Below are positions 386-37,859 of a stretch of 37,859 bases of DNA, one piece after another; within the stretch, counting starts at the first letter, position 1, and each line of letters begins with the position of its first letter. The DNA is from a virus (lineage: Duplodnaviria > Heunggongvirae > Uroviricota > Caudoviricetes): IMG/VR virus record IMGVR_UViG_2541047757_000015, one strand, 5' to 3'. A program made the translations under genes and the position numbers. Below the pieces are notes generated by a model. It saw only the letters and a list, made by a program, of their open reading frames with translations. It was not told the origin of the DNA and did not search any database.

Positions 386-1624
386 ATGGCGCTGTCTGAT
401 GCGTGGTTGCGTTCAGTCGTTGGAAAGGAACGTGATAAGGTTTTGGTTAAATCCGATCGTGATGGTCTGTCTGTCAGAGTATCACCGAAAGGTCGCGTAG
501 TGTTCCAATATCGTTATCAATGGGCAGGGAAAGGTGAGCGCCTTGATATCGGAACTTACCCGGCAACTGGATTAAAAGAGGCCAGAGAAGAAGTTATCCG
601 TCTCCGTGGTGAACTCGAGTCAAACCGCAATCCACGATTAGTCAAGCAGGCTGAAAAACGAAAAGCTACTGAAGCCATGACGGTAGAGTCTGTGATCCGT
701 GCCTGGTATGAAGCATATTGTGTAAAAAATAAAAAAGGTTCTGAACAGATACTCCGCTCGTTTGAGCTGCACCTGTTCTCTAAAATCGGGAATATCCCTC
801 ACGATGCAGCTACATTGCATGATTGGTTAGAAGTCCTAGAGCCTCTTAGCACCAAGACTCCAGCAATAGTAGACCGATTGCTAATTAACGCAAAGCAGGC
901 TCATGTCTGGGCGTATAAGAGAAAGCTCATTGAAACTCGCCCACTGTCGGATATCACGGGTAAAGATATGGATATCCGTAAAGGTCAGAAAAAACGGTTT
1001 CTGACACATGATGAAATTAACATCCTTTATGCTGCGATCGATGGTTCTCGAATGGTTCCTAAATACCGAGCCTTCATTAAACTATTGCTGCATTTTGGTT
1101 GCCGTAGTTCAGAGCTAATTACTGCTAGGGTGGATGATTTTGATTTCATAAATAAGGTATGGACTGTACCACCAGAACGACATAAGACTGGGGACATAAC
1201 AGGCGAACCGCTAAAGCGGCCCATTATTGAACCGGTTGAAGAGCTTATAAAATACGTTATCTCTATGAACAACGGTTCCGATATGCTTTTTACTAAGGAA
1301 GGAAGCAGGGAGCCAGTTGGTCGGACATCATTGCAGTCGCTGCCTTACAATTTAATGCAGTTCGCATGGCGACGTTTGGGGTATCAATTTCCTCATTGGT
1401 CTCTTCATGATTTGAGACGAACAGCACGAACAAACTTTTCTGATCTTACTGCTCCTCATATTGCTGAAATAATGCTCGGTCATAAACTGCCAGGGGTATG
1501 GCAAGTTTATGATAAGAGCGATTATCTAGAAGAACAGCGTAAAGCCTATCAGGCATGGTGGGATAGGGTTGATTCGATTCTTACTTACACTAATTTAGGT
1601 TCCAACAGACAGCCTATTGAATAA
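386..1624 (+). CDS. Tyrosine-type site-specific integrase (phage integrase family)
   Basis: 412-aa ORF with ATG start and AGGTGA ribosome-binding site; C-terminal HxxR...Y-type catalytic region (WSLHDLRRTARTNFSDL ... GHKLPGVWQVYDKSDY); sits at the prophage end next to the prfC fragment. Confidence 0.9.
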   Translation: MALSDAWLRSVVGKERDKVLVKSDRDGLSVRVSPKGRVVFQYRYQWAGKGERLDIGTYPATGLKEAREEVIRLRGELESNRNPRLVKQAEKRKATEAMTVESVIRAWYEAYCVKNKKGSEQILRSFELHLFSKIGNIPHDAATLHDWLEVLEPLSTKTPAIVDRLLINAKQAHVWAYKRKLIETRPLSDITGKDMDIRKGQKKRFLTHDEINILYAAIDGSRMVPKYRAFIKLLLHFGCRSSELITARVDDFDFINKVWTVPPERHKTGDITGEPLKRPIIEPVEELIKYVISMNNGSDMLFTKEGSREPVGRTSLQSLPYNLMQFAWRRLGYQFPHWSLHDLRRTARTNFSDLTAPHIAEIMLGHKLPGVWQVYDKSDYLEEQRKAYQAWWDRVDSILTYTNLGSNRQPIE

Positions 1625-4502: not shown

Positions 4503-4503
4503 G

Positions 4504-18022: not shown

Positions 18023-18197
18023 TATCTGCTTTAAATATGTTATTAAAATATAAAAAATACTTGTTACGAATAAAATCAATCAAGCTACAGCTTTAAGATT
18101 TGTCTGGAATACTTTGTTGCAATGAGGGCAGATCAAAAGGGCACCTTTTTGTACTCTTGAAAAACTGTGTTCTGACTCTTGGGTGCTGGATTTGCCC

Positions 18198-19103
18198 CTA
18201 TATTTCCAGACACCTGTTATCACTTAACCCATTACTGGCCTGCTGCCGCAGATATTCCCGTGGCGAGCGATAACCCAGTGCACTATGCGGATGCCATTCG
18301 TTATAATGCTCGAACGCCTCTGCAAGGTTCTTTGCTGCCGTTAACCCGTCTGGTTTAGGCATGATACTGATGTAGTCACGCTTTATCGTTTTCACGAAGC
18401 TCTCTGCTATGCCGTTACTCTCCGGACTCCGCACCGCCGTGTTCTTCGGTTCAAGCCCCAACATCCGGGCAAACTGCCGTGTTTCATTAGCCCGGTAGCA
18501 TGAACCATTATCCGTCAGCCACTCTACTGGAGACGCCGGAAGCTCGTTGCCGAAGCGGCGTTCCACCGCTCCCAGCATGACGTCCTGTACTGTTTCACTG
18601 TCGAAGCCGCCCGTAGTGACTGCCCAGTGCAGTGCCTCACGGTCACAGCAGTCCAGCGCGAACGTGACTCGCAGTTTTTCTCCGTTATCACAGCGGAACT
18701 CGAACCCGTCAGAGCACCATCGTTGATTGCTTTCTTTCACGGCCACTTTGCCAGTATGTGCCCGTTTCGATGGCGGTACAGCGGTTTTTCGCTCAAGCAA
18801 CAGCGCATTCTGGCGCATGATCCGGTAAACACGTTTGGCATTGATCGCAGGCATACCATCAAGTTCGGCCTGTCTGCGAAGCAGCGCCCATACCCGACGA
18901 TAACCATACGTGGGCAGCTCTCCGATAACATGGTGTATACGGAGAAGCACATCCGTATCATCTGAGTGACGGCTGCGGCGACCATCTTTCCAGTCATCGG
19001 TTCGTCTGAGAATTACGTGCAACTGCGCACGCGACACCCGGAGACAACGGCTGACTAAGCTTACTCCCCATCCCCGGGCAATAAGGGCGCGTGCGCTATC
19101 CAC
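18198..19103 (-). CDS. insD: IS2 transposase OrfB (InsD), DDE integrase-core domain
   Basis: 301-aa ORF recognised as IS2 InsD. Confidence 0.9.
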
Positions 19104-19426
19104 TTTTTTGCACGCCCGTATTCAACGGCTTCTTTAAGGAGTTCATTTTCCATCGTTTTTTTGCCGAGCAGGCGCTGGAGTTCTTTAATCTGCTTCATGG
19201 CAGCAGCAAGTTCAGAGGCAGGAACGACCTGCTCTCCTGCGGCCACAGCAGTAAGACTTCCCTCCTGGTATTGCTTGCGCCAGAGAAATAACTGGCTGGC
19301 TGCCACACCGTGTTGCCGGGCAACAAGGGAGACCGTCATTCCCGGTTCAAAACTCTGCTGAACAATAGCGATCTTTTCCTGTGTAGTACGCCGTCTGCGT
19401 TTCTCCGGTCCTAAGACATCAATCAT
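19061..19426 (-). CDS. insC: IS2 transposase OrfA (InsC), HTH
   Basis: Internal start [26 protein letters not shown] ... gives 121 aa; overlaps insD as expected for a -1 frameshift fusion. Confidence 0.85.
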
Positions 19427-19804
19427 CTGCTCTCCAATGACTAGTCTAAAAACTAGTATTAAGACTATCACTTATTTAAGTGATATTGGTTGTCTGGAGA
19501 TTCAGGGGGCCAGTCTAGGTGCAGTTTGGGCAGGAACATTTAACGAGATAATTACGGCGTGATTTTGAGTCTTTACGTTCTGACATAGGCTTTTCCTGTA
19601 TAAATGGCCGTATACAGTACACTAAATATGAAAACATATCTCGTATTATTATTTAATATATGATTTTCTTTTAAAATAATTACCCACATTTTTAATGTGT
19701 CTGTTTTTTAGCGCCGTTGAGAACAACGTTTGCTATAAAAACTAACCCATAGACTCCGATCTTTTCAAACATATTGCACCATCTGTGTACATCGGGGTGA
19801 GGAT

Positions 19805-20897: not shown

Positions 20898-21925
<1,028 letters not shown>

Positions 21926-22501: not shown

Positions 22502-22705
22502 GGTAGAAAATATTACAAACCATATTCACTTTAGATGCCCGTGTTGCCATGGTTCTCAGTATAGAACATCATCTTTTGATGTTTCTGACAGAAATCCTTT
22601 CGGGGCAAAATGTATCTTTTGTAAATCAATGATGATTACATTTGATAATATTTCACAATACTTAAATGTTAGCCATCTGTCGTTAGATTTAAGAAAGTGA
22701 AAATG

Positions 22706-22728
22706 AAGGCTCCTTCGGGAGCTTTTTT
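22706..22728 (+). terminator. Candidate rho-independent terminator
   Basis: GCTCC-TTCG-GGAGC followed by TTTTTTG. Confidence 0.4.
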
Positions 22729-22772
22729 GCTTAGTGTCTAGTCGATGGATACTCACATATTACGGTAACATT

Positions 22773-23003
22773 ATGAAAAAAATAATAGTTTTTTTTAACT
22801 CTGAACCAGCAATGGTAGTGCCAGTGATGACCGGAGTTAACACCATCATGCGTGAATATCCAAATGGCGAAACAACACACCTCACTGTAATGGCTGCAGG
22901 GTTTCCATCTCTGACCGGAGATCATAAAGTCATTTATGTAGCAGCGGATCGACATGTAACTTCAGAAGAAATTCTGGAAGCAGCAATGAGACTCTTGAAT
23001 TGA
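22773..23003 (+). CDS. Hypothetical small protein
   Basis: Internal ATG (MKKIIVFFNSEP...); ~76 aa. Confidence 0.4.
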   Translation: MKKIIVFFNSEPAMVVPVMTGVNTIMREYPNGETTHLTVMAAGFPSLTGDHKVIYVAADRHVTSEEILEAAMRLLN

Positions 23004-23172
23004 TTTGATTCTAATGCATTGATAATAAATGATAATCATCTTTATCTGTTTGTGTGAAATTTAGACCGTCGTATGTTGATTATTGCGATGTTTCATCTTA
23101 TCTTTTATACGTTTGCTCCATATAATTGACACTACTGTGTACCAGGACAGTCATAACAGACTAAAAGAGGAA

Positions 23173-23349
23173 ATGATGAACATTGAAGAGTTAAAAACAA
23201 AAACAGAAGCAGATATTTCTGAATATATAACAAAAAAAATCATTGAGCTTAAGAAAAAGACCGGGAAAGAAGTTACCAGTATCCAGTTTACTGCACGGGA
23301 AAAAATGACTGGTCTTGAAAGCTATGATATCAAGATTGATTTAATCTAG
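23173..23349 (+). CDS. GnsA/GnsB-family small protein
   Basis: Internal ATG with AAGAGG ribosome-binding site; MNIEELKTKTEADISEYI ... FTAREKMTGLESYDIKIDLI resembles GnsB as I recall it; ~58 aa. Confidence 0.6.
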   Translation: MMNIEELKTKTEADISEYITKKIIELKKKTGKEVTSIQFTAREKMTGLESYDIKIDLI

Positions 23350-23644
23350 CATGTTTATAGTATTAGCATCAATTTCTCATCAGATGCTATTCAACAATAC
23401 AAATTACCCATAAACCTCGTTTTTACGGGGTTTTGTTATATTTAAACATTACCGAATAGATATAAATCTCGATTGTCAATGGTATTGGTTGTGTGACAAT
23501 ACCTAGTCTTTCCGGTATGCCTGAAGAGAATACAAACGACAGATTATGTAAGGGAAACGCGCTGAAACTTTCACTCTTTCATGCTGAGTGATTTGACGTT
23601 ATATTTTTAGCCGCAAGTGAAGAGCAAACGAATGGAGCGACAAA

Positions 23645-23851
23645 ATGCATAAAGATCAATACACTGATGCCCCCTCCCAGGAGCAGGTTCGTGTAAAAAC
23701 TATGCTTAATAGCACCATTTCGATGGGTTACCCGGATGTTGTAATTGCATGTATAGAACATCAAGTATCTCTGGAAGCATTCAGGGCAATTGAGGCCGCG
23801 TTAGTAAAGCACGATAAGAATACGAAGGATTATTCCCTGGTGGTTGACTGA
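23645..23851 (+). CDS. Hypothetical small protein
   Basis: 68 aa, ATG with GGAG ribosome-binding site; no family recognised. Confidence 0.45.
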
Positions 23852-24224
23852 TCACCATAACTGCTAACCATTCTGACCATTTCACAAGTGACAGAGTCAA
23901 TATCGTATTCTGTCACTGTAAGGCTAATACAGTACTGCAATTCAACTACAGCAATGCCTCGTATTTAGGTGAATTTACAATATCGTCCAGTTCGGATGCC
24001 GGCTGCATTTCTGAAGATAAGGCATTTCGGTTCGCGTATTTTCCCCTCATGCTCGTCAGTCCTGCGCGTAGTAAGAAACAGGACACTCACACTAATTTGT
24101 GTGGGCATGCTGTGATGTCCTTCTGAATTATCCCCATGCCATTATGTAACGCTCTGTTTCAGATGCTCGTCACGGTTGTCAGGCTGTCGGGTCCTCCCAG
24201 TGGGGGTCCCTGCCACGGGGCGGG

Positions 24225-24245
24225 AGCGTCGCGGAAAAAGGCTAG
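24225..24245. other. Candidate cohesive-end site (cosN-like) upstream of the terminase genes
   Basis: ACGGGGCGGGAGCGTCGCGG resembles the lambda cosN region as I recall it; located ~160 bp upstream of the small terminase. Confidence 0.4.
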
Positions 24246-24403
24246 TTTTTGCATTTTTATCGGCCACCATCATCTTTGCATCTTATTGATTATTAATGGT
24301 TGTTTGTTTTTTGTATGTCGAATTGAGTGTTTTTTGTTCGACATCGAACGCGTTTTCTTAAAGTTGTTCGCACGATGCATGTTTAAAGCTCTCCGGAGGA
24401 AAT

Positions 24404-24895
24404 ATGGATCATGAGTTGAAAAACCTGGTGCTGAATATTAATCAACTGGCGGCTTTATCTGGTCTGCACCGCCAGACTGTCGTGGCAAGACTGAAAAACA
24501 TTCGTCCCGCTGGTGGACATGACAAACTCAAGCTATACCGGTTGACCGATATTCTGACTGAATTTATGGGGTTACCACCGCCGGTTGCTGAGGGCGAAAT
24601 GGATCCACATGAACGCAAAGCCTGGTATCAGTCTGAACGTGAGCGTCTTAAGTTCGAACAGGAAACGGCACAACTCATTCCGGCCAGTGATGTCAGACGG
24701 GAGTTTGCCATCTGGGCAAAAGCGGTCGTGCAGGTGCTGGAGACATTACCGGATATTCTGGAACGTGACTGCGGCCTGCAGCCTGCCGCTGTGAGCCGTG
24801 TTCAGTCCATTATTGATGATCTGCGCGATCAGATAGCCCTGCGGGTGACCGAAGCAGGTGCGGATGATGAGGAGGAATTACAGCAGGAGGAGTAA
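24404..24895 (+). CDS. Terminase small subunit (Nu1-like)
   Basis: 163 aa, ATG with GGAGG ribosome-binding site; N-terminal HTH NINQLAALSGLHRQTVVARL; acidic C-terminus; immediately precedes the large terminase. Confidence 0.7.
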   Translation: MDHELKNLVLNINQLAALSGLHRQTVVARLKNIRPAGGHDKLKLYRLTDILTEFMGLPPPVAEGEMDPHERKAWYQSERERLKFEQETAQLIPASDVRREFAIWAKAVVQVLETLPDILERDCGLQPAAVSRVQSIIDDLRDQIALRVTEAGADDEEELQQEE

Positions 24896-26997
24896 TGCTG
24901 AATCAGGAAACCGCAAAGGCAGCACGAACCGATTCAGGTTATATCCTTCGCGCACCGAGACGAATGCGGGTTGCTGATGCCGTTGCTCAGTATATGCGGG
25001 TGCCCATGGGGGCCGGGAACTCAGTCCCGTGGGATCCGCTGGTGGCACCGTATGTTATTGAGCCGATGAACTGCCTGGCCTCGCGTGAATACGACGCAGT
25101 GATATTTGTTGGCCCGGCACGAACTGGCAAGACTATCGGCCTGATTGACGGCTGGGTGATTTACAACGTGATTTGCGATCCTGCTGATATGCTGATCATT
25201 CAGATGACGGAGGAAAAAGCCCGCGAACACTCCAAAAAACGACTTGCCAGAACGTTTCGCGTCAGCCCGGAAGTGGTCAGTCGCCTGAGTCCGAACAAAA
25301 ATGACAACAACGTTTATGACAGAACATTCCTTGCTGGCAACTACCTGAAAATCGGCTGGCCGTCAGTCAATATCATGTCCTCATCAGATTATAAATGCGT
25401 GGCGCTGACGGATTATGACCGTTTTCCGGAAGATATTGATGGCGAGGGGGATGCCTTCTCTCTTGCCTCAAAACGTACCACCACATTTATGTCCAGTGGT
25501 ATGACGCTGGTGGAGAGTTCCCCCGGCAGGGATGTGAAGGATGTGAAATGGCGACGGACTTCACCGCATGAGGCTCCACCAACCACGGGGATACTGTCGC
25601 TCTATAACCGTGGCGATCGCCGTCGCTGGTACTGGCCCTGTCCACACTGTGGTGAGTATTTTCAGCCCTGCGGCGATGTGGTTGCTGGTTTCCGTGATAT
25701 TGCCGATCCCGTGCTGGCAAGTGAGGCGGCTTATATTCAGTGTCCTTCCTGTTCAGGACGGATTATGCCTGAACAAAAACGTGAGCTGAACGGACGTGGG
25801 GTCTGGTTGCGGGATGGTGAATCCATCAATGCGGATGGCAGTCGTTATGGTGATCCCCGACGCTCACGTATTGCGTCATTCTGGATGGAGGGTCCGGCAG
25901 CTGCTTACCAGACACTCTCGCAACTCGTTTACAAACTGCTTGCTGCAGAACAGGAATACGAGACAACCGGAAGTGAAGAAACACTCAAGACGGTTATCAA
26001 TACCGACTGGGGATTACCTTATCTTCCCCGTGCCAGCATGGAGCAACGAAAAAGTGAACTGCTTGAGCAGCGGGCAGAGCCAGTTCCTTCCCGCAGTGTG
26101 CCGGATGGCGTTAATTTCCTGGTGGCGACAGTTGATGTGCAGGCGGGACGTCATCGCCGTTTTGTGGTTCAGGTAACGGGCTATGGCAGCCGTGGCGAAC
26201 GCTGGATTATTGATCGTTACAACATCACGCAGTCATTGCGCGGTGACAGCGACGGGGAGAGCCAGCGAATTGATCCGGCCAGCTATCCGGAAGACTGGGA
26301 TGTCCTGCTGACGGATGTTTTTCATAAAAGCTGGCCGCTGGCCTCCGATCCTTCTCAACAAATGCGACTGATGGCAATGGCGGTGGACTCCGGCGGTGAA
26401 GACGGAGTCACTGATAATGCCTATAAATTCTGGCGTCGTTGCCGTCGTGATGGCCTTGGTAAACGTATTTACCTGTTTAAGGGCGACAGCATCCGGCGCG
26501 CAAAACTGATCACCCGTACATTCCCTGATAACACCGGACGAACGGGCCGACGGGCGCAGGCCGCAGGTGATGTACCGCTCTGGCTTCTTCAGACGGATGC
26601 CCTGAAAGACCGGGTGAATAACGCGTTATGGCGTGACTCGCCAGGTCCCGGCTATGTGCATTTCCCTGACTGGCTGGGGAGCTGGTTTTACGACGAACTG
26701 ACGTATGAAGAGCGGAGCAGTGACGGGAAATGGAGTAAGCCGGGTCGCGGTGCCAACGAAGCTTTTGACCTGATGGTGTATGCCGAGGCTCTGGTCATTC
26801 TGCATGGATACGAAAAGATCCGCTGGCCGGATGCACCGGAGTGGGCGAGCCGGGAAACCTGGCTGGAGTGTGTCCCGGACAGTACCGAACCGTCACCCAC
26901 ACCGGAACCGGTATCCACGCCTGTTAAAAAACAAAAACGGAAGAAAACAGTAACTGACGATGTTAACCCCTGGCTGACTTCCGGAGGATGGTTATGA
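24895..26997 (+). CDS. Terminase large subunit (GpA-like)
   Basis: 700 aa; Walker A-like GPARTGKT; CPHCGE zinc motif typical of GpA-type terminases; start overlaps the small-subunit stop. Confidence 0.85.
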   Translation: MLNQETAKAARTDSGYILRAPRRMRVADAVAQYMRVPMGAGNSVPWDPLVAPYVIEPMNCLASREYDAVIFVGPARTGKTIGLIDGWVIYNVICDPADMLIIQMTEEKAREHSKKRLARTFRVSPEVVSRLSPNKNDNNVYDRTFLAGNYLKIGWPSVNIMSSSDYKCVALTDYDRFPEDIDGEGDAFSLASKRTTTFMSSGMTLVESSPGRDVKDVKWRRTSPHEAPPTTGILSLYNRGDRRRWYWPCPHCGEYFQPCGDVVAGFRDIADPVLASEAAYIQCPSCSGRIMPEQKRELNGRGVWLRDGESINADGSRYGDPRRSRIASFWMEGPAAAYQTLSQLVYKLLAAEQEYETTGSEETLKTVINTDWGLPYLPRASMEQRKSELLEQRAEPVPSRSVPDGVNFLVATVDVQAGRHRRFVVQVTGYGSRGERWIIDRYNITQSLRGDSDGESQRIDPASYPEDWDVLLTDVFHKSWPLASDPSQQMRLMAMAVDSGGEDGVTDNAYKFWRRCRRDGLGKRIYLFKGDSIRRAKLITRTFPDNTGRTGRRAQAAGDVPLWLLQTDALKDRVNNALWRDSPGPGYVHFPDWLGSWFYDELTYEERSSDGKWSKPGRGANEAFDLMVYAEALVILHGYEKIRWPDAPEWASRETWLECVPDSTEPSPTPEPVSTPVKKQKRKKTVTDDVNPWLTSGGWL

Positions 26998-27206
26998 ACC
27001 AGAATGATATCGAAGCCATGATTCAGCGTTATACGGAAGCTGAAATGGCGGTGCTGGACGGAAAATCCGTCACCTTTAATGGTCAGCAGATGACCATGGA
27101 AAACTTATCTGAGATCCGGCAGGGACGGCAGGAGTGGGAGCGCCGCCTTGCGGCTCTGATTACACGACGACGGGGGCATCCCGGGTACCGGCTTGCGAGG
27201 TTCTGA
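26994..27206 (+). CDS. W: Head-tail joining protein W-like (gpW family)
   Basis: ~70 aa; ATGA overlap with the terminase stop; C-terminal RRRGHPGY resembles lambda gpW (…RRRGPAGFY). Confidence 0.7.
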   Translation: MNQNDIEAMIQRYTEAEMAVLDGKSVTFNGQQMTMENLSEIRQGRQEWERRLAALITRRRGHPGYRLARF

Positions 27207-27397
27207 TGGCAATTCTTGATGATGTGATTGGCGTTTTTTCACCAGGATGGAAAGCGGCAAGGCTGCGTTCCCGTGCGGTGATCCAGGCTTATGAGGCCGT
27301 AAAAACGACGCGGACACACAAAGCCCGGCGGGAAAACCGAACTGCCGACCAGTTAAGCCAGTACGGGGCCGTGTCGTTACGTGAGCAGGCCCGTTAA
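27206..27397 (+). pseudogene. N-terminal remnant (~63 codons) of the portal protein gene, truncated by an internal deletion
   Basis: ATG overlaps the W stop (TGATG) exactly where lambda B begins; ORF stops after 63 codons and is followed by a tail-gene fragment. Confidence 0.5.
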
Positions 27398-27399
27398 AA

Positions 27400-27585
27400 C
27401 CTGACGGAGCCAGTGACAAAGCGATCAGTGTGCATTCGTCAGATCCACAGACTGCCACGGTTACCCTGAACGGACTTGTGGCCACGGTAAAAGGCGTGAA
27501 GCAGGGCAGTGTCAGCATTGTGGGCATGACCGCTGACGGGAATTTTGTGGCTGTGACTGCGGTGACTGTCAGCGCAGCAGGTTAA
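27400..27585 (+). pseudogene. C-terminal remnant of the major tail protein V (Ig-like domain)
   Basis: Translation ...SDPQTATVTLNGLVATVKGVKQGSVSIVGMTADGNFVAVTAVTVSAAG-stop, with no upstream start or N-terminal body; directly precedes G. Confidence 0.45.
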
Positions 27586-27605
27586 CAGGACGATACTCAT
27601 CATTT

Positions 27606-27630
27606 GCCCCGGTTATTCGGGGCTTTTTTG
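27606..27630 (+). terminator. Candidate rho-independent terminator just upstream of G
   Basis: GCCCCG-GTTATT-CGGGGC followed by TTTTTTG. Confidence 0.4.
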
Positions 27631-27642
27631 CAGGTGGAGAAC

Positions 27643-28032
27643 ATGATGTTTCTGAAACAGGACACGTTTAATTATGAAAAACAGTCCGTGGTGCTCAGTG
27701 AGCTGTCCGGGCTGCAGAGAATTGAATATCTGACGTTTGTTCAGCAGCGAACGGCAAAGTTTGATGCCGGGGAGGGAGAACTGCCGGAGGCTGAACGACA
27801 GATTGCTTTTCTGCGGATGGGGATGGATATCAATGCCTGGCTGGTTTCCCGCTCACTGTGGAATGCGGATCAGTCTAAGGATGTAGAGACGCTTTGCGCA
27901 TCCGTTATTACAACATGGTCGTATGATGCCCTGGGTGCGGGGGCGGAGATGGTTCTGTCGCTGAGCGGTATGGGGGCCATTGATAATGCCGTGGATGATG
28001 AGCATGAGGCGCTGACGCCGGAAAAGTCCTGA
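27643..28032 (+). CDS. G: Tail assembly chaperone G
   Basis: MMFLKQDTFNYEKQSVVLSELSGLQRIEYL ... closely resembles lambda gpG; GGTGGAG ribosome-binding site. Confidence 0.85.
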   Translation: MMFLKQDTFNYEKQSVVLSELSGLQRIEYLTFVQQRTAKFDAGEGELPEAERQIAFLRMGMDINAWLVSRSLWNADQSKDVETLCASVITTWSYDALGAGAEMVLSLSGMGAIDNAVDDEHEALTPEKS

Positions 28033-28040
28033 CGCGGGAA

Positions 28041-28370
28041 ATGCAGTTTGTCATGCGGCTTGCCCGGGAGTTCCGGCGGGCAGACTGGCGGCGGATGCTG
28101 TCGGAAATGTCGGCCACTGAGCTTGGTGAGTGGGGCGATTATTTCCGGATGCAGAGCTTCAGTGATGTGTGGATGGATGCGCAGTTTGCCTCGCTGAAGG
28201 CATTGATCGTGAGAATGGTGTCCGGCAGCAGTGATGCTGCGGTGGCTGATTTCAGCCTTTTACCGGAAGAGAACGGGATACCGGAGCGAACGGACGAAGA
28301 ACTGATGCATCTTGGGGAAGGTATTTCCGGAGGTGTGCGTTATGGACCAGATAGCCAACCTGGTCATTGA
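28041..28370 (+). CDS. T: T segment of the G-T tail assembly chaperone (expressed by -1 frameshift from G)
   Basis: -1 frame ORF with REFRRADWRRMLSEMS ... GGVRYG resembling lambda gpT; shift must occur near GAAAAG at the end of G. Confidence 0.7.
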   Translation: MQFVMRLAREFRRADWRRMLSEMSATELGEWGDYFRMQSFSDVWMDAQFASLKALIVRMVSGSSDAAVADFSLLPEENGIPERTDEELMHLGEGISGGVRYGPDSQPGH

Positions 28371-31300
28371 GTTGGGGATTGATGCGGCAGAGTTTAAAAA
28401 TGAAATTCCCCGTATCAAAAACCTTCTGAATGGTGCAGCCAGCGATGCAGAACGGTCTTCTGCCCGTATGCAGCGTTTTATGGAGCGTCAGACTCAGGCC
28501 GCCCGGCAGACAACGCAGGCAGCTTCTTCGGCTGCAACAGCCGCATCCGTCCATGCGCAGACGGTGGAGAAGAACGCACAGGCTCATGAACGCATGGCCC
28601 GCGAGGTGGAGAAAACCCGCCAGCGCATGGAGGCACTGAGCCAGAAAATGCGCGAGGAACAGGCGCAGGCCATGGCTCTGGCGGAGGCTCAGGATAAAGC
28701 GGCTGCTGCGTTTTATCGTCAGATTGACAGTGTGAAACAGGCCAGTGCGGGGCTGCAGGAATTACAGCGTATTCAGCAGCAGATCCGACAGGCCAGAAAC
28801 AGTGGCGGGATTGGTCAGCAGGATTATCTGGCGCTGATTTCTGAGGTTACTGCGAAAACCCGTGTTCTTACACAGGCTGAGGAAGAGGCTACCCGACAGA
28901 AAGTGGCGTTTATCCGTCAGCTTAAAGAGCAGGCAACCCGCCTGAATCTTTCATCTTCTGAGTTGCTTCGTGCTAAGGCAGCCCAGCTGGGGGTAAGCAG
29001 TGCTGCAGAAGTGTATATCCGCAAAATGGAGCAGGCAGGAAAAGCCACGCATTCGCTGGGTCTGAAAAGTGCAGCAGCCCGCCAGGAGATAGGCGTTCTG
29101 ATAGGTGAACTGGCCCGCGGCAATTTAGGGGCGCTGAGGGGATCCGGGATAACGCTGGCTAACCGTGCCGGATGGATAGACACACTGATGTCACCGAAAG
29201 GCATGATGCTTGGCGGGGTTATTGGCGGTATTGCCGCGGCCGTCTATGGTCTGGGTAAAGCCTGGTATGACGGTCAGAAGGAGGGGGAAGAATTTAACCG
29301 CCAGTTGTCGCTGACGGGGCATTATGCCGGAGTCACTGCCGGGCAGCTGTGGACGCTCAGTCGTGCTATTTCCGGGAATGGTATCACGCAACATGCTGCA
29401 GCCGGTGCGCTGGCTCAGGTGGTGGGGAGTGGTGCATTTCGTGGAAACGATATCGGTATGGTGGCGAGAGTTGCCGCACAGATGGAGCGATCGGTTGGCC
29501 AGTCGGTCAGCGATACCATAAATCAGTTTAAGCGGCTGAAGGATGATCCTGTAAATGCCGCGAAGGCTCTGGACAATGAGCTGCATTTTCTTACTGCCAC
29601 TCAGCTTGAGCAGATACGCGTCCTTGGGGAGCAGGGGCGGTCCAGTGATGCTGCACGGATAGCCATGTCTGCACTGGCAGAGGAAACCGGTCGGCGTACT
29701 GCGGATATTGATAATAACCTCAATGCGCTTGGCAGTACGCTGAAGTATCTGTCTGATTTGTGGAGTCGTTTCTGGGATGCGGCCATGAATATTGGTCGTG
29801 AAGACTCGCTGGATGAACAGATTGCCGCTTTACAGGAGAAAGTGTCGCGGGCGAAAAGACTCCCCTGGACGGCATCATCTTCTCAGGTTGAATACGATCA
29901 GCAGCGTCTTAACGATCTTCAGGAGAAAAAACGCCAGAAGGATTTGCAGGATGCAAAAGAGCAGGCAGAGCGGAATTATCAGGAGCAACAGAAACGCCGT
30001 AATGCTGAAAATGCTGCACTGAACCGGATGAATGAAACGGAAGCAGCACGACATCAGCGTGAAATTGCGCGTATTAATGCCATGCAGTACGCCGATCAGG
30101 CTGTCAGGGATGCGGCGATACAACGTGAAAATGAACGTTACGAGAAAGCCCTGGCATCCGGTAAGAAAAAAACACGCGAAACCCGTAATGATGAGGCCAC
30201 CCGGTTATTGCTGCAGTACAGTCAGCAACAGGCACAGGTGGAAGGACAGATTGCTGCTGCCAGACAGTCAGCAGGCATTGCCACGGAAAGGATGACAGAA
30301 GCGCATAAACAGCTTCTGGCTCTGCAGCAGCGCATCAGCGACCTGGACGGGAAAAAACTGACGGCAGATGAAAAGAGTGTGCTGGCCCGTAAAGATGAAC
30401 TGATTCAGGCACTGACGCTGCTGGATGTAAAACAGCAGGAGCTTCAGAAACAGACGGCACTCAACGAGCTGAAGAAAAAAACAATTCAGCTGACCAGTCA
30501 ACTGGCTGAAGAAGAGCGCGCTCAGCGTCAGCAACATGACCTGGATATCGCCACGGTGGGTATGGGTGATCAGCAGCGACAGCGATATCAGGTACAACTG
30601 AGTCTTCGCCAGAAATACCAGCAACAGCTGGAGCAGTTGAGGCGGGATAGTGAGCAGAAAGGGACATATAACACGGATGACTACAGAAAGGCCGAGCAGG
30701 CGCTGACGGAGAGCCTGAACCGACAACTGAATGAGAATCGCCGTTACTGGCAACAGCTTGAAGTTGTGCAGGGTAACTGGAAAAACGGAGTCCTGCGTGC
30801 ATTTCAGGATTTTACCGTGGATGCAGATAATACGGCAGAAACAGCAGAACAGGTGTTCTCGTCAGCCTTCAGCAACATGGGAAATGGCCTGGCAACTTTT
30901 GTCACTACCGGCAAACTCAATTTCAAATCCTTCACCTCTTCTGTGCTGTCAGATATGGCGAAAATCCTGGCGCAGGCAACCATGATGAAATCGATAAAAG
31001 GGATTGGCAGTGTACTGGGATTTGATCTCAGCAGCCTTTCCCTGAATGCCAATGGGGGGATTTATCAGTCTGCTGATTTGAGTCGTTACAGTGGCACGGT
31101 GGTTAACCGTCCGACGTTTTTTGCTTTTGCAAAAGGCGCGGGTGTGATGGGGGAAGCGGGACCTGAAGCCATTCTGCCATTGCGTCGTGGTGCTGACGGT
31201 AAGCTGGGGGTTGTGGCGGATATTGGGGGGTCAGGTATGGCGATGTTTTCCCCGCAGTACAACATCGAGATCAATAACGATGGCACGAACGGGCAGATAG

Positions 31301-31407
31301 GTCCGGCTGCCCTGAAGGCGGTTTATGACCTCGGGAAAAAAGCGGCAGCGGACTTTATGCAACAGCAGGCCCGTGATGGTGGTCGGTTAAGTGGAGCATA
31401 TCGGTAA
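28342..31407 (+). CDS. H: Tail tape measure protein H
   Basis: ~1021 aa; N-terminus MDQIANLVIELGIDAAEF and C-terminus NIEINNDGTNGQIGPAALKAVYDLGKK resemble lambda gpH; GGAGG ribosome-binding site. Confidence 0.9.
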   Translation: MDQIANLVIELGIDAAEFKNEIPRIKNLLNGAASDAERSSARMQRFMERQTQAARQTTQAASSAATAASVHAQTVEKNAQAHERMAREVEKTRQRMEALSQKMREEQAQAMALAEAQDKAAAAFYRQIDSVKQASAGLQELQRIQQQIRQARNSGGIGQQDYLALISEVTAKTRVLTQAEEEATRQKVAFIRQLKEQATRLNLSSSELLRAKAAQLGVSSAAEVYIRKMEQAGKATHSLGLKSAAARQEIGVLIGELARGNLGALRGSGITLANRAGWIDTLMSPKGMMLGGVIGGIAAAVYGLGKAWYDGQKEGEEFNRQLSLTGHYAGVTAGQLWTLSRAISGNGITQHAAAGALAQVVGSGAFRGNDIGMVARVAAQMERSVGQSVSDTINQFKRLKDDPVNAAKALDNELHFLTATQLEQIRVLGEQGRSSDAARIAMSALAEETGRRTADIDNNLNALGSTLKYLSDLWSRFWDAAMNIGREDSLDEQIAALQEKVSRAKRLPWTASSSQVEYDQQRLNDLQEKKRQKDLQDAKEQAERNYQEQQKRRNAENAALNRMNETEAARHQREIARINAMQYADQAVRDAAIQRENERYEKALASGKKKTRETRNDEATRLLLQYSQQQAQVEGQIAAARQSAGIATERMTEAHKQLLALQQRISDLDGKKLTADEKSVLARKDELIQALTLLDVKQQELQKQTALNELKKKTIQLTSQLAEEERAQRQQHDLDIATVGMGDQQRQRYQVQLSLRQKYQQQLEQLRRDSEQKGTYNTDDYRKAEQALTESLNRQLNENRRYWQQLEVVQGNWKNGVLRAFQDFTVDADNTAETAEQVFSSAFSNMGNGLATFVTTGKLNFKSFTSSVLSDMAKILAQATMMKSIKGIGSVLGFDLSSLSLNANGGIYQSADLSRYSGTVVNRPTFFAFAKGAGVMGEAGPEAILPLRRGADGKLGVVADIGGSGMAMFSPQYNIEINNDGTNGQIGPAALKAVYDLGKKAAADFMQQQARDGGRLSGAYR

Positions 31408-31736
31408 TGGAGACGTTTCACTGGAAAGTGCGCCCGGATATGAATGTGGTATCAGAGCCGAAAGTGGTGACAGTGAAGCTGGGCGATGGTTATGAACAGC
31501 GTCGTGCGGCGGGACTGAATAACCAGTTGTCGACTTACAGCGTGACGATACGTGTTCGTAAATGTGACCACCCATCTTTAAAAGCCTTTCTGGAACGGCA
31601 CGGTGGCGTCCGTGCATTTCAGTGGACGCCACCTTATGACTGGAAACCGATCAGGGTGGTTTGTCGTAAATGGTCGGCAAGCGTGGGGGCGCTGTGGGTA
31701 ACCATAACGGCAGATTTTGAACAGGTCGTGGCATAG
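31407..31736 (+). CDS. M: Minor tail protein M
   Basis: 109 aa; TAATG overlap with the H stop; lambda gpM-like. Confidence 0.85.
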   Translation: METFHWKVRPDMNVVSEPKVVTVKLGDGYEQRRAAGLNNQLSTYSVTIRVRKCDHPSLKAFLERHGGVRAFQWTPPYDWKPIRVVCRKWSASVGALWVTITADFEQVVA

Positions 31737-31745
31737 GAGGCTCTG

Positions 31746-32444
31746 ATGCAGGATATTCCACAGGAAACACATCATGAGACGACACGCCTCACTCAGTCAG
31801 CCCAGGTGGTGCTCTGGGAAATCGATCTGACAGAGGTCGGTGGTGAACGTTATTTTTTCTGTAATGAGCAGAACGAAAAAGGTGAGCCGGTTATCTGGCA
31901 GGGGCGGCAGTATCAGGTATACCCCATTCAGGGGACGGGATTTGAACTGAACGGCAAGGGCAGTGCTGCCCGTCCGACACTGACGGTTTCTAACCTGTAC
32001 GGTATGGTCACCGGGATGGCGGAAGATCTGCAGAGTCTGGTCGGCGGAACGGTGGTCCGGCGTAATGTTTACGCCCGTTTTCTGGATGCGGTGAACTTCG
32101 TCAACGGAAACAGTGACGCCGATCCGGAGCAGGAGGTGATCAGCCGCTGGCGCATTGAGCAGTGCAGCGAACTGAGCGCGGTGAGTGCCTCTTTTGTACT
32201 GTCCACGCCGACGGAAACGGACGGCGCTGTTTTTCCGGGACGTATCATGCTGGCCAACACCTGCACCTGGACCTATCGCGGTGATGAGTGCGGTTATCAC
32301 GGTCCGGCAGTCGCGGATGAATATGACCAGCCGACGTCCGATATCACGAAGGATAAATGCAGCAAATGCCTGAGCGGCTGTAAGTTTCGCAATAACGTCG
32401 GCAACTTTGGCGGCTTCCTTTCCATTAACAAACTTTCGCAGTAA
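31746..32444 (+). CDS. L: Minor tail protein L
   Basis: 232 aa; GGAGG ribosome-binding site; lambda gpL-like including the C-terminal cysteine cluster. Confidence 0.85.
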   Translation: MQDIPQETHHETTRLTQSAQVVLWEIDLTEVGGERYFFCNEQNEKGEPVIWQGRQYQVYPIQGTGFELNGKGSAARPTLTVSNLYGMVTGMAEDLQSLVGGTVVRRNVYARFLDAVNFVNGNSDADPEQEVISRWRIEQCSELSAVSASFVLSTPTETDGAVFPGRIMLANTCTWTYRGDECGYHGPAVADEYDQPTSDITKDKCSKCLSGCKFRNNVGNFGGFLSINKLSQ

Positions 32445-32448
32445 TCCC

Positions 32449-33797: not shown

Positions 33798-36700
33798 ATG
33801 GGTAAAGGCAGCAGTAAGGGGCATACTCCGCGCGAAGCGAAGGACAACCTGAAGTCCACGCAGTTGCTGAGTGTGATCGATGCCATCAGCGAAGGGCCGA
33901 TTGAAGGTCCGGTGGATGGATTAAAAAGCGTGCTGCTGAACAGTACGCCAGTGCTGGACACTGAGGGGAATACCAACATCTCCGGCGTCACGGTGGTGTT
34001 CCGGGCAGGTGAACAGGAGCAGACACCGCCGGAGGGATTTGAATCCTCCGGCTCCGAGACGGTGCTGGGTACGGAAGTGAAATATGACACGCCGATCACC
34101 CGCACCATCACGTCGGCAAACATCGACCGTCTGCGCTTTACCTTCGGTGTGCAGGCACTGGTGGAAACCACCTCAAAGGGGGACAGGAATCCATCGGAAG
34201 TCCGCCTGCTGGTTCAGATACAGCGTAACGGTGGCTGGGTGACGGAAAAAGACATCACCATTAAGGGCAAAACCACCTCGCAGTATCTGGCCTCGGTGGT
34301 GGTGGATAACCTGCCGCCGCGCCCGTTTAATATCCGGATGCGCAGGATGACGCCGGACAGCACCACAGACCAGCTGCAGAACAAAACGCTCTGGTCGTCA
34401 TACACCGAAATCATCGATGTGAAACAGTGCTACCCGAACACGGCACTGGTTGGCGTGCAGGTGGACTCGGAGCAGTTCGGCAGCCAGCAGGTGAGCCGTA
34501 ATTATCATCTTCGCGGGCGCATTCTGCAGGTGCCGTCGAACTATAACCCGCAGACGCGGCAATACAGCGGTATCTGGGACGGAACGTTAAAACCGGCATA
34601 CAGCAACAACATGGCCTGGTGTCTGTGGGATATGCTGACCCATCCGCGCTACGGCATGGGGAAACGTCTTGGTGCGGCGGATGTGGATAAATGGGCGCTG
34701 TATGTCATCGGCCAGAATTGCGACCAGTCGGTGCCGGACGGCTTTGGCGGCACGGAGCCGCGCATCACCTGTAACGCTTACCTGACCACACAGCGCAAGG
34801 CGTGGGATGTGCTCAGTGATTTCTGCTCGGCGATGCGCTGTATGCCGGTATGGAACGGGCAGACGCTGACGTTCGTGCAGGACCGACAGTCGGATAAGGT
34901 GTGGACCTATAACCGCAGTAATGTGGTGATGCCGGATGATGGCGCGCCGTTCCGCTACAGCTTCAGCGCCCTGAAGGACCGCCATAATGCCGTTGAGGTG
35001 AACTGGATTGACCCGAACAACGGCTGGGAGACGGCGACAGAGCTTGTTGAAGATACGCAGGCCATTGCCCGTTACGGTCGTAATGTCACGAAGATGGATG
35101 CCTTTGGTTGTACCAGTCGGGGGCAGGCACACCGAGCCGGGCTGTGGCTGATTAAAACGGAACTGCTGGAAACGCAGACCGTGGATTTCAGCGTGGGCGC
35201 AGAAGGGCTTCGCCATGTGCCGGGCGATGTTATTGAAATCTGCGATGATGACTATGCCGGTATCAGCATCGGTGGTCGCGTGCTGGCGGTGAACAGCCAG
35301 ACCCGGACGCTGACGCTCGACCGTGAAATCACGCTGCCATCCTCCGGCACCACGCTGATAAGCCTGGTTGACGGTGAGGGTAATCCGGTCAGCGTGGAGG
35401 TCCAGTCCGTCACCGACGGCGTGAAGGTGAAAGTGAGCCGTGTTCCTGACGGCGTTGCTGAATACAGCGTGTGGGGGCTGAAGTTGCCGACGTTGCGCCA
35501 GCGCCTGTTCCGCTGCGTGAGTATCCGTGAGAACGACGACGGCACGTATGCCATCACTGCCGTGCAGCATGTACCGGAGAAAGAGGCCATCGTGGATAAC
35601 GGGGCGCACTTTGACGGCGACCAGAGCGGCACGGTGAATGGTGTCACGCCGCCAGCGGTGCAGCACCTGACTGCCGAAGTCACCGCAGACAGCGGGGAAT
35701 ATCAGGTGCTGGCCCGCTGGGACACGCCGAAAGTGGTGAAGGGCGTGAGCTTCCTGCTTCGCCTGACCGTGGCAGCGGATGACGGCAGTGAGCGGCTGGT
35801 CAGCACGGCCCGGACGACGGAAACCACATACCGCTTCACGCAACTGGCGCTGGGGCGTTACATGCTGACGGTCCGGGCGGTAAATGCGTGGGGGCTGCAG
35901 GGCGATCCGGCATCGGTATCGTTCCGGATTGCCGCACCGGCAGCGCCGTCTCGGATTGAGCTGACACCGGGCTATTTTCAGATAACCGCCACGCCACATC
36001 TTGCGGTTTATGACCCGACGGTACAGTTTGAGTTCTGGTTCTCGGAAAAACGGATTGCGGATATCAGGCAGGTTGAAACCACAGCCCGCTATCTTGGCAC
36101 GGCGCTGTACTGGATAGCTGCCAGTATCAATATCAGGCCGGGCCATGATTATTATTTTTACGTTCGCAGTGTGAACACCGTTGGCAAATCGGCATTCGTG
36201 GAGGCTGTTGGTCGGGCGAGCGATGATGCGGAAGGTTACCTGGATTTTTTCAAAGGCCAGATAACCGAATCCCATCTTGGCAAGGAGCTGCTGGAAAAAG
36301 TCGAGCTGACGGAGGATAACGCCAGCAAACTGGAGGAGTTTTCGAAAGAGTGGAAGGACGCCAGTGATAAGTGGAATGCCATGTGGGGCGTCAAAATTGA
36401 GCAGACCAAAGACGGCAAACATTATGTCGCGGGTATTGGCCTCAGCATGGAGGACACGGAGGAAGGCAAACTGAGCCAGTTCCTGGTTGCCGCTAACCGT
36501 ATCGCGTTTATTGATCCGTCTAATGGCAACACAAGACCAATGTTTGTTGGTCAGGGCGATCAGATATTCATGAACGACGTGTTCCTGAAACGCCTGACGG
36601 CTCCGACCATTACCAGCGGCGGTAATCCTCCGGCATTTTCCCTGACACCGGATGGGCGGCTGACGGCGAAAAATGCCGATATCAGCGGTAACGTGAATGC

Positions 36701-37190
36701 GAACTCCGGGACGCTCAACAACGTCACGATTAACGAGAACTGTCGGGTTCTGGGAAAACTGTCCGCGAACCAGATTGAAGGCGATCTCGTTAAAACAGTG
36801 GGCAAAGCTTTCCCCCGGGACTCCCGTGCACCGGAACGGTGGCCATCAGGGACCATTACCGTCAGGGTTTATGACGATCAGCCGTTTGACCGGCAGATTG
36901 TTATTCCTGCGGTGGCATTCAGCGGCGCTAAACATGAGAGAGAGCATACTGATATTTACTCCTCATGCCGTCTGATAGTGCGGAAAAACGGTGCTGAAAT
37001 TTATAACCGTACCGCGCTGGATAATACGCTGATTTACAGTGGCGTTATTGATATGCCTGCCGGTCACGGTCACATGACGCTGGAGTTTTCGGTGTCAGCA
37101 TGGCTGGTAAATGACTGGTATCCCACAGCAAGTATCAGCGATTTGCTGGTTGTGGTGATGAAGAAAGCCACCGCAGGCATCAGTATCAGC
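33798..37190 (+). CDS. J: Tail tip / host specificity protein J; no in-frame stop at the expected end, frame continues into lom
   Basis: Near-identical to lambda gpJ over the N-terminal ~980 aa ([18 protein letters not shown] ...); C-terminal ~150 aa diverge; end placed at the lambda-equivalent position, 1131 codons. Confidence 0.8.
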
Positions 37191-37210
37191 GAATTTTATA
37201 ACCCATATAC

Positions 37211-37238
37211 GGGCGCCAGAAATGGCGCCTTTTTTATT
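37211..37238 (+). terminator. Rho-independent terminator in the J-lom spacer
   Basis: GGGCGCC-AGAAAT-GGCGCC followed by TTTTTTATT. Confidence 0.5.
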
Positions 37239-37259
37239 GCAGAAAAGCGAGAGGTAATT

Positions 37260-37859
37260 ATGCGTAAAGTTTGTGCAGCCATTTTGTCCGCAGCCATTTG
37301 TCTGGCCGTATCCGGTGCGCCTGCATGGGCGTCTGAACATCAGTCCACGCTGAGCGCGGGGTATCTTCATGCCTCGACGAACGTCCCCGGCAGTGATGAT
37401 CTGAACGGGATTAACGTGAAATACCGTTATGAGTTTACGGACACACTGGGGCTGGTGACGTCATTCAGCTATGCAGGAGACAAGAATCGCCAGCTGACCC
37501 GTTACAGCGATACCCGCTGGCATGAAGATTCCGTTCGTAACCGCTGGTTCAGCGTAATGGCGGGGCCGTCTGTGCGCGTGAATGAATGGTTCAGCGCGTA
37601 TGCGATGGCGGGTGTAGCTTACAGCCGTGTGTCGACTTTCTCCGGGGATTATCTTCGCGTAACTGACAACAAGGGGAAAAAGCACGATGTGCTGACCGGA
37701 AGTGATGACGGTCGCCACAGCAACACGTCTCTGGCGTGGGGGGCTGGCGTGCAGTTTAACCCGACCGAATCCGTGGCCATTGATATTGCTTATGAAGGCT
37801 CCGGCAGTGGCGACTGGCGCACTGACGGTTTCATCGTGGGTGTCGGTTATAAGTTCTGA
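37260..37859 (+). CDS. lom: Lom outer-membrane protein (Ail/Lom family)
   Basis: [24 protein letters not shown] signal peptide and beta-barrel body nearly identical to lambda Lom; GAGAGG ribosome-binding site; the window ends at its stop codon. Confidence 0.85.

What the first reader, a model, noticed from the sequence alone, without database searches (positions are those of the whole stretch)
27206..27600. Deletion of the head-gene block: portal start fused near the C-terminal remnant of the major tail protein
W is followed by only ~63 codons of a portal-like ORF, and then directly by the last ~60 codons of an Ig-like V tail protein, a terminator, and G. The genes for portal, protease/scaffold, decoration, major capsid, FI, FII, Z, U and most of V are missing. 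The prophage therefore cannot make capsids although terminase and tail genes look intact, which suggests a cryptic element or a capsid-hijacking or tailocin-like relic.
Basis: partly seen in the sequence, partly recalled or inferred. Interest (0 to 1): 0.55.

Follow-up and report, generated by a model that had tools for sequence, protein, structure and literature searches.

The report
Head-gene deletion in defective prophage
A lambda-like prophage of E. coli has lost 5.5 kb holding its capsid genes and tail-tube gene, so it is an ordinary dead prophage; the oddity is that its left breakpoint recurs, to the nucleotide, in at least ten other independent deletions.

Summary
Window 27206-27394 holds the first 63 codons of a portal gene. 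A TAA stop forms at the joint (27395-27397). The last 62 codons of major tail protein V follow (27397-27585), then a terminator and gene G.

Against the nearly identical intact prophage of E. coli S88 (flanks 99.95-99.98% identical), exactly 5,521 bp are missing. The lost genes are the rest of portal, the ClpP-protease/major-capsid fusion gene, the decoration gene, a head-tail connector, Z, U, and the tube domain of V.

The prophage lies between yjjG and prfC and has no head genes anywhere else. It also carries an IS2 insertion and a lost J stop codon, so it is decaying.

The tailocin reading fails because the tube, terminator and Z genes are gone. Nothing supports a satellite.

One thing was unexpected. 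The same left breakpoint (a TA in GCCCGT-TA-CC) is joined to 11 different downstream partners in other E. coli prophages. A second TA 208 bp upstream is a breakpoint in five more. Together they leave a 207-nt island (ribosome-binding site plus 63 codons) in several remnants. I found no mechanism for this.

The parts
24404..24895 (+). Small terminase subunit (DUF1441 family), intact
   Evidence: 163-aa ORF. PF07278 on the identical gene in L003. Annotated as terminase small subunit in mEp460.
24895..26997 (+). Large terminase subunit (GpA ATPase + nuclease), intact, 700 aa
   Evidence: The left arm 19518-27396 has 2 mismatches in 7,879 bp against S88.
26994..27206 (+). W-like head-tail adaptor (DUF6148), 70 aa
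   Evidence: Weak Pfam DUF6148 match, below the curated cut-off.
27186..27187 (.). Second recurrent breakpoint: the TA in CCCGGG-TA-CCGGCT, 20 nt upstream of the portal ATG. It is intact in this window.
   Evidence: Unrelated DNA is joined at this TA in L011, L019/L020, L021, L026 (island kept) and L054 (island lost)..
27206..27397 (+). Truncated portal gene: 63 codons plus a TAA stop created at the joint
   Evidence: The intact portal is 502 aa. The exact 63-aa product is on 102 contigs and is named only 'hypothetical protein' in E. coli FAP1.
27395..27396 (.). Deletion joint: a TA shared by portal (GCCCGT-TA-CCTTGAT) and V (TTTACAG-TA-AAACCTG). 5,521 bp are missing relative to S88.
27397..27585 (+). 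Remnant of major tail protein V: the last 62 codons plus stop, which are the C-terminal Ig-like (Big_2) domain. It is in a different frame from the portal stub and has no start of its own.
   Evidence: Intact V is 247 aa with a tail-tube domain followed by Big_2.
27606..27633 (+). Rho-independent terminator that normally follows V
   Evidence: Annotated at the same place in mEp460.
27646..28370 (+). Tail assembly chaperones G (27646-28032) and T (28041-28370)
   Evidence: PF06894, PF06223.
28342..31407 (+). Tape measure protein H, 1,021 aa
31407..33737 (+). Tail tip genes M, L, K and I
33798..37859 (+). J fused to lom. The T of the J stop codon is lost at about 37191, giving a 1,353-aa ORF.
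18187..19517 (-). IS2-like insertion (IS3 family), 1,331 bp with a 5-bp target duplication. This is further decay of the same prophage.
   Evidence: It is absent from other carriers of the same deletion (L005, L007, L013).
386..1624 (+). Prophage integrase at the yjjG end of the element

Best explanation
This is a defective (cryptic) lambdoid prophage with an mEp460/cdtI/Gifsy-2-type late region, integrated between yjjG and prfC of E. coli.

One illegitimate recombination event between two TA dinucleotides removed 5,521 bp. One TA lies in portal codon 64 and the other in V codon 185. The joint makes a TAA stop, so a 63-residue portal stub is encoded. The V remnant is out of frame and has no start.

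Seven genes are hit: portal, the ClpP-protease/scaffold/major-capsid fusion gene, decoration, a head-tail connector, Z, U, and the tube domain of V. The element can therefore build neither capsids nor tails.

The deletion came first and decay continued. An IS2 insertion and loss of the J stop codon are found only in a subset of carriers.

Shown: the anatomy, the deleted interval, the order of events, and the absence of head genes elsewhere in the prophage.

Inferred: the prophage is inert as a virus. It persists by vertical descent, and could be packaged only if a related helper supplied every missing protein. The joint arose from a DNA end or strand switch at a site that breaks recurrently.
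For: - Joint mapped to the nucleotide against PhiR47_1 and S88.
- Flanks are 99.975% and 99.95% identical to the intact S88 prophage. 731 complete genomes hold the undeleted arrangement.
- Gene content of the missing interval comes from the annotation of S88, PhiR47_1 and mEp460 and from the Pfam families of L022.
- The V remnant is the Big_2 domain only.
- The same junction is found with and without the IS2 insertion and the J-lom fusion.
- The right arm out to prfC and the left arm out to yjjG hold no head genes.
- The junction is present in many independent assemblies.
Against: - Nothing contradicts the deletion itself.
- Inertness is inferred, not tested.
- The junction is absent from all 5,426 RefSeq complete genomes searched, so it is a rare allele.
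- A purely random illegitimate event does not explain why the same nucleotide is a breakpoint in at least ten other deletions.
Confidence: 0.9

Rival explanations
1. The deletion is one product of a site-preferring process. Something makes a DNA end or strand switch at two particular TA|CC sites that flank the first 63 portal codons, and this end is then joined to any downstream TA. The cause could be a nuclease, a recombinase or a replication barrier. Alternatively or in addition, the 63-residue portal stub with its ribosome-binding site is kept by selection, for example as a fragment that poisons portal assembly of related incoming phages.
For: - Eleven different right partners are joined at the same TA: V, M, H, the capsid gene, two sites in J, three in tail-fibre genes and two in tfa.
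- All seven right-hand parents that could be identified have TA at the crossover. TA makes up about 4.5% of dinucleotide positions in the S88 prophage.
- The flanks of three junction types differ by 0%, 1.8% and 4.8% from the window, which points to independent events.
- A second TA 208 bp upstream is a breakpoint in five further remnants. Four of them keep only the 207-nt island.
- Among short proteins that start like this portal, about 7 distinct break products diverge at codon 63/64. Single ones diverge at codons 33, 43, 49, 52, 82 and 85.
- IMG/VR holds 3 junctions at the hotspot and 0 at two neighbouring TA sites.
- RefSeq complete genomes hold 2,053 copies of the island but only 2,018 copies of the next 207 nt.
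Against: - No enzyme was identified.
- There is no insertion sequence at any joint and no terminal inverted repeats.
- No hairpin is stronger than in shuffled sequence.
- The sites do not fit the AAACC-NN-GGTTT core of Hin/Gin/Pin sites (consensus recalled from my own knowledge).
- Selection on a peptide cannot by itself fix a breakpoint to the nucleotide.
- The protein searches were seeded with the 63-aa product, which biases sampling towards this site.
- The island is ordinary coding sequence in intact phages.
Confidence: 0.3
2. The element is a helper-dependent, satellite-like prophage that keeps cos and terminase in order to be packaged into the capsids of a co-resident phage.
For: - cos region, terS and terL are intact.
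- Defective lambdoid prophages of O157 Sakai can be released as particles and transferred (PMC2669165).
- With 5.5 kb removed, the genome would still be of packageable size (inference).
Against: - It is near-identical to an ordinary intact prophage on both sides of the joint.
- It keeps full lambdoid regulation, lysis and tail-tip genes, and has no satellite-type genes.
- It is accumulating IS and stop-loss damage.
- The allele is rare: 0 of 5,426 complete genomes.
Confidence: 0.08
3. The element is a tailocin-like relic that still makes tail-only particles.
For: G, T, H, M, L, K, I and a lysis cassette are present.
Against: - The tube domain of V, the terminator U and Z are deleted.
- J has lost its stop codon.
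- Terminase is retained, which tailocin loci lack (own knowledge).
Confidence: 0.02
4. The joint is an assembly or sequencing artefact.
For: The junction is absent from RefSeq complete genomes.
Against: The identical junction appears in many independent assemblies made by different methods, including a closed genome and long contigs.
Confidence: 0.01

Closest known systems
Intact prophage of E. coli S88 / APEC O1 at yjjG-prfC, and phages PhiR47_1 and mEp460
   Same: Same integration site and the same late region. Identity is 99.95-99.98% to S88 and 96-98% to PhiR47_1. Gene order is the same: cos-terS-terL-W-portal-ClpP/MCP-decoration-connector-Z-U-V-G-T-H-M-L-K-I-J-lom.
   Different: The window lacks 5,521 bp from portal codon 64 to V codon 185, carries an IS2, and has a J-lom fusion. 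Its early region is mosaic relative to S88.
Cryptic lambdoid prophages of E. coli (Qin, Rac, DLP12 of K-12; the Qin-like remnant of strain E3)
   Same: These are lambdoid prophages inactivated by internal deletions and IS insertions. They keep scattered late genes and cold-shock/gnsB morons. The E3 remnant even keeps the same 207-nt portal stub between two deletions. The K-12 examples come from my own knowledge.
   Different: The window's element is much less decayed, with one large deletion plus two small lesions.
Defective prophage pool of E. coli O157 Sakai (Asadulghani et al. 2009, PMC2669165)
   Same: Lambdoid prophages with defined morphogenesis defects that may still be excised, packaged and moved with help from co-resident prophages.
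   Different: No activity data exist for this element. Whether a compatible helper is present in the source genome was not examined.
Deletion hot spots at fixed DNA ends: replication-arrest sites, nick sites of rolling-circle origins, and IS ends giving adjacent deletions (own knowledge, not checked here)
   Same: One endpoint is fixed to the nucleotide. The other is variable, with little or no homology, which gives a nested series to one side.
   Different: No Ter site, origin nick site or IS could be found at the fixed point. The CTTGATA-like and Ter-like resemblances beside it are offset from the joint and imperfect (inspection only).

Membership tests
Defective (cryptic) lambdoid prophage | Integrated in the chromosome next to its own integrase, flanked by host genes | tested here: met
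   yjjG lies to the left (the window starts right after it), with the integrase at 386-1624. dinI and prfC lie to the right in the source contig.
Defective (cryptic) lambdoid prophage | Lambdoid gene order: int, early/immunity, replication, Q, lysis, cos-terminase, head, tail | tested here: met
   Collinear with PhiR47_1 and the S88 prophage apart from mosaic early segments.
Defective (cryptic) lambdoid prophage | Loss or disruption of genes essential for particle formation, relative to intact relatives | tested here: met
   A 5,521-bp deletion hits seven morphogenesis genes. J has also lost its stop codon.
Defective (cryptic) lambdoid prophage | No infectious particles on induction | not testable with these tools
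   This needs induction and plaque or electron-microscopy assays.
F-type tailocin (flexible phage-tail-like bacteriocin) | Complete tail module including the tube protein and tail terminator | tested here: not met
   The tube domain of V, together with U and Z, lies inside the deleted interval. Only the Big_2 domain of V remains.
F-type tailocin (flexible phage-tail-like bacteriocin) | No head or DNA-packaging genes (feature recalled from my own knowledge) | tested here: not met
   terS, terL, W and the cos region are retained.
Phage satellite (PICI, cf-PICI or P4-like) | Small genome with its own helper-responsive regulation and replication, and no lysis or tail genes (feature recalled from my own knowledge) | tested here: not met
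   The element is more than 38 kb and has a cI/Cro/CII-type immunity region, Q, a lysis cassette and eight tail genes.
Phage satellite (PICI, cf-PICI or P4-like) | Dedicated gene that redirects helper packaging or capsid size | tested here: inconclusive
   The Pfam scans and the neighbours' annotation showed none. Several small ORFs were not examined.
IS- or transposon-mediated adjacent deletion | A mobile element, or its inverted-repeat ends, at the fixed endpoint | tested here: not met
   No IS lies at any of the joints read. The ends of the 207-nt island are no more alike than shuffled sequence. The window's IS2 is 8 kb away.
Quasi-site recombination by a Hin/Gin/Pin-type serine invertase | The same 2-bp crossover dinucleotide in both partners | tested here: met
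   TA is at the crossover in every identified parent. A Pin-like recombinase gene lies in the same prophage and in strain E3.
Quasi-site recombination by a Hin/Gin/Pin-type serine invertase | Half-sites resembling ...AAACC NN GGTTT... around the crossover (consensus recalled from my own knowledge) | tested here: not met
   The hot sites read GGCCCGT-TA-CCTTGAT and CCCGGG-TA-CCGGCT, and the partner sites share nothing beyond TA. This was inspection only. No natural crossover sites could be recovered from the decayed tail-fibre regions.

The most novel reading that the evidence does not exclude
Two specific TA|CC sites 208 bp apart, in the W/portal region of mEp460-type prophages, are nucleotide-precise hot spots for deletion. 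An as yet unidentified activity generates them. Candidates are a structure- or sequence-preferring nuclease, a recombinase using a TA core, or a replication block. One candidate nuclease is the prophage's own RusA, which cuts 5' of CC. The 207-nt island left between the two sites is a ribosome-binding site plus 63 portal codons. It may be retained in otherwise gutted prophages because the stub peptide benefits the host, for instance by interfering with portal assembly of related phages.
Probability: 0.25. Interest if true: 0.6.

Novelty: new member of a known kind. Interest (0 to 1): 0.3.

Why it matters
As given, the finding adds one more example of prophage decay, and it corrects the idea that this element could still make tails.

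The recurrent breakpoint is the useful by-product. If it holds up in a full census, it gives a defined, assayable site at which E. coli prophages are repeatedly truncated. That would make the mechanism of prophage inactivation experimentally approachable. It would also allow a test of whether a small portal stub is kept for a reason.

Tried and rejected
- **Assembly artefact.** Rejected: the same joint is in many independent assemblies.
- **Head genes elsewhere in the prophage.** None in the left arm or in the right arm to prfC.
- **The island as a MITE or pseudo-transposon.** Its ends are not inverted repeats. The conserved portal motif SLREQARY runs across its right border (the lambda gpB comparison is from my own knowledge).
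- **Hairpin or cruciform at the hot sites.** Folding energies are no better than shuffles. No notable local repeats.
- **Pin-type invertase quasi-sites.** The TA core fits but the half-sites do not. Natural crossover sites could not be recovered.
- **Rpn nucleases.** They are reported to lack sequence specificity (PMC5350276).
- **Gyrase 4-bp stagger, restriction sites, IS608 TTAC, IS91 or rolling-circle CTTG nick sites, a Ter-like sequence, and Chi-like sequences near the site.** On inspection, none places the cut where the joints are.
- **RusA.** It cuts 5' of CC (PMC1636454), both hot sites are TA|CC, and the prophage encodes RusA. However, CC is far too common to explain two sites among 123 TACC in the prophage. 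I keep it only as a lead.
- **Other breakpoints in the stub.** The common break after codon 49 is a Mu-like prophage insertion. Several others are frameshifts or contig ends.
- **Literature searches for a described hotspot.** Nothing relevant was found.
- **Scan of species-representative genomes for the joint.** Nothing was found.

Full report
**What is there.** The window is a lambdoid prophage read from its integrase end (integrase 386-1624) to lom (ends 37859). At the finding's coordinates the sequence shows:
- a 70-codon W-like gene (26994-27206);
- an ORF starting at 27206 that runs for 63 codons and stops at TAA 27395-27397;
- 62 codons plus stop (27397-27585) that match only the C-terminal Ig-like Big_2 domain (E=4.9e-6);
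- a hairpin plus T run (27606-27633);
- the tail chaperone gene G (27646-28032).

**Mapping the deletion.** Against phage PhiR47_1, the window matches up to base 21191 of the phage (portal nucleotide 191) and resumes at 26723, which is 191 nt before the end of V. The closest intact relative is the prophage of E. coli S88, with identical copies in APEC O1 and other genomes.
- Window 19518-27396 has 2 mismatches in 7,879 bp against it.
- Window 27395-37859 has 4 mismatches and one 1-bp gap in 10,466 bp.
- The two alignments overlap by a TA, and 5,521 bp of S88 are absent.

By the S88, PhiR47_1 and mEp460 annotations and the Pfam families of an intact relative, the missing interval holds:
- portal residues 64-502;
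- a 675-aa ClpP-protease/major-capsid fusion gene;
- a decoration gene;
- a 91-aa Gifsy-2-type connector;
- Z and U;
- the first 184 codons of V, that is, its tail-tube domain.

The joint puts TAA directly after portal codon 63. The V remnant is in another frame with no start of its own.

**Is it real, and where does it come from.** The window is 100% identical over 20,192 bp to contig KE699872.1 of assembly GCA_000457635.1.
- The same joint is in the closed genome of E. coli FAP1, in other NCBI and Logan assemblies, and in an IMG/VR contig.
- The 63-aa product is recorded from 102 contigs and is named only 'hypothetical protein'.
- None of 5,426 RefSeq complete genomes has the joint, while 731 have the undeleted arrangement. 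The allele is real but rare.

**State of the rest of the prophage.**
- The prophage lies between yjjG and prfC.
- The right arm of the source contig runs lom, tail-fibre genes, an IS fragment with an assembly gap, a Pin-like serine recombinase, ydfK-like, dinI, then prfC. There are no head genes.
- The left arm holds the integrase, an anti-phage dCTP deaminase, yfdP-S-type genes, a ParA-like ATPase, an S24 repressor, CII, replication genes, Dam, RusA, KilA-N, DUF968, Q, cold-shock morons and lysis genes. Again there are no head genes.
- Two further lesions exist. One is a 1,331-bp IS2-like insertion with a 5-bp duplication at 18187-19517. The other is loss of the T of the J stop codon, which fuses J to lom.
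- Both lesions are missing from other carriers of the same deletion. The deletion therefore came first and decay went on.

**Interpretation.** This is ordinary prophage decay.
- The element cannot make capsids. That excludes a tailocin.
- Nothing marks it as a satellite. It is a near-identical copy of a normal phage genome, with full regulation, lysis and tail-tip genes.
- cos, terS and terL are intact. The cos assignment rests on a lambda-cosN-like sequence near 24215-24235, which I recognised from my own knowledge.
- A related helper could in principle package the element, as shown for defective prophages of O157 Sakai (PMC2669165). That is inference only.

**The unexpected part.** Looking up the exact 63-aa product returned it in several different contexts. 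Following this up through searches showed one portal position...GAGCAGGCCCGT-TA, joined to 11 different downstream partners:

| Type | Partner joined at the portal TA | Loci |
|---|---|---|
| A | V (this window) | window, L003, L005, L007, L009, L012, L013 |
| B | start of M | L004, L006, L010, L011 |
| C | stf | L008 |
| D | J | L014 |
| E | J Ig domain | L015, L016 |
| F | tfa | L017 |
| G | end of the capsid gene | L018 |
| H | tail-fibre repeat | L019, L020 |
| I | another tail-fibre gene | L021 |
| J | inside H | L026 (RefSeq strain E3), L030 |
| K | tfa | L031 |

- Each is a simple rightward deletion of a different length.
- All seven right-hand parents I could identify have TA at the crossover.
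- The flanks of types A, B and C differ by 0, 1.8 and 4.8%. This argues for independent events.

**A second hot site.** A second TA, 208 bp upstream (27186-27187, CCCGGG-TA-CCGGCT), is also a breakpoint.
- In L011, L019/L020, L021 and L026, unrelated upstream DNA is joined there. What survives is a 207-nt island of ribosome-binding site plus 63 codons between two deletions.
- In L054, the W side is kept and the island is lost.

**Controls.**
- Among short proteins that begin like this portal, about seven distinct products diverge at codon 63/64. Single ones diverge at codons 33, 43, 49, 52, 82 and 85. The break at codon 49 is a Mu-like prophage insertion.
- In IMG/VR, 3 junctions lie at the hot TA. 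There are none at two neighbouring TA sites, and none pointing leftwards.
- In RefSeq complete genomes the island occurs 2,053 times and the next 207 nt 2,018 times.
- Caveat: the sampling was seeded from the 63-aa product, and lineages were not formally collapsed.

**Mechanism of the hot spot.** None was established.
- Rejected on the evidence here: an IS or inverted-repeat ends, hairpins, Pin-type half-sites (inspection), and Rpn nucleases (no specificity, PMC5350276).
- Both hot sites read TA|CC. The prophage encodes RusA, which cuts 5' of CC at junctions (PMC1636454). But there are 123 TACC sites in the prophage, so this is only a lead.
- A fixed 3' end ...TA that primes or ligates at any other TA would fit all the joints. 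What makes that end is unknown.
- Selection for the stub peptide could explain why islands persist, but not the precision of the breakpoint.

**Verdict.** The feature itself is an ordinary, previously unannotated instance of a known process. The recurrent breakpoint deserves a proper census.

Noticed in passing
window 27186-27187 and 27395-27396; loci L004, L008, L011, L014-L021, L026, L030, L031, L054: Two TA|CC sites 208 bp apart are recurrent, nucleotide-precise deletion breakpoints in independent prophage remnants. The right site has 11 partners and the left site has 5 junctions. Between them they leave a 207-nt island of ribosome-binding site plus 63 portal codons. No mechanism was found.
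   Followed up: partly
L022 6001-6192 and L023 4698-4889: In an otherwise intact prophage, the same portal codon 64 carries a plain TAC-to-TAA nonsense change. This gives the same-length 63-aa stub, followed by the rest of the portal gene.
   Followed up: partly
window 1777-3372 (-): A 531-aa deaminase-domain protein next to the integrase, annotated in identical RefSeq copies as an anti-phage dCTP deaminase. It is a defence gene carried by the prophage.
   Followed up: partly
window 8608-9684 (-): A ParA-like AAA_31 ATPase gene lies beside the S24-type repressor (9855-10616). This segment is absent from the S88 and 13TMH22 versions of the prophage.
   Followed up: no
window 18187-19517: A 1,331-bp IS2-like insertion with a 5-bp target duplication, in the moron region ahead of the lysis genes. 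It is absent from other carriers of the same head-gene deletion.
   Followed up: yes
window about 37191; ORF 33798-37859: Loss of one T removes the J stop codon and fuses J to the outer-membrane protein gene lom (1,353 aa). It is seen only in the window's source and one sister assembly.
   Followed up: yes
L029 (E. coli 13TMH22, NZ_CP019256 893500-943200): This strain has the same left arm (99.7% identical over window 1-7332) at the same site. Its deletion is far larger, running from KilA-N straight to the side tail fibre gene, with the joint at a shared TATG.
   Followed up: partly
L055 4001-8225: A Mu-like transposable prophage (repressor, Ner, MuA, MuB) is inserted in the same portal gene after codon 49. 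The allele is listed in 171 blocks of the collection.
   Followed up: partly
L009 1-8700: A late region with the same head-gene deletion is joined inside terL (window 25881) to a different element. That element has a D5-type primase, its own ClpP-capsid fusion gene (64-71% identical at the DNA level) and a second terS. It could be a chimera or another element.
   Followed up: no
L004 and L010 (assembly GCA_045572395.1): One assembly holds the portal-to-M deletion prophage twice: on the chromosome and on a separate 33.5-kb contig. This could be an excised circular copy or an assembly duplicate.
   Followed up: no
L027 19505-20095 (-); L026 6290-6880 (-): A Pin-like serine recombinase gene sits at the right end of these prophages beside decayed tail-fibre genes. 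No intact invertible segment or crossover sites could be recognised.
   Followed up: partly
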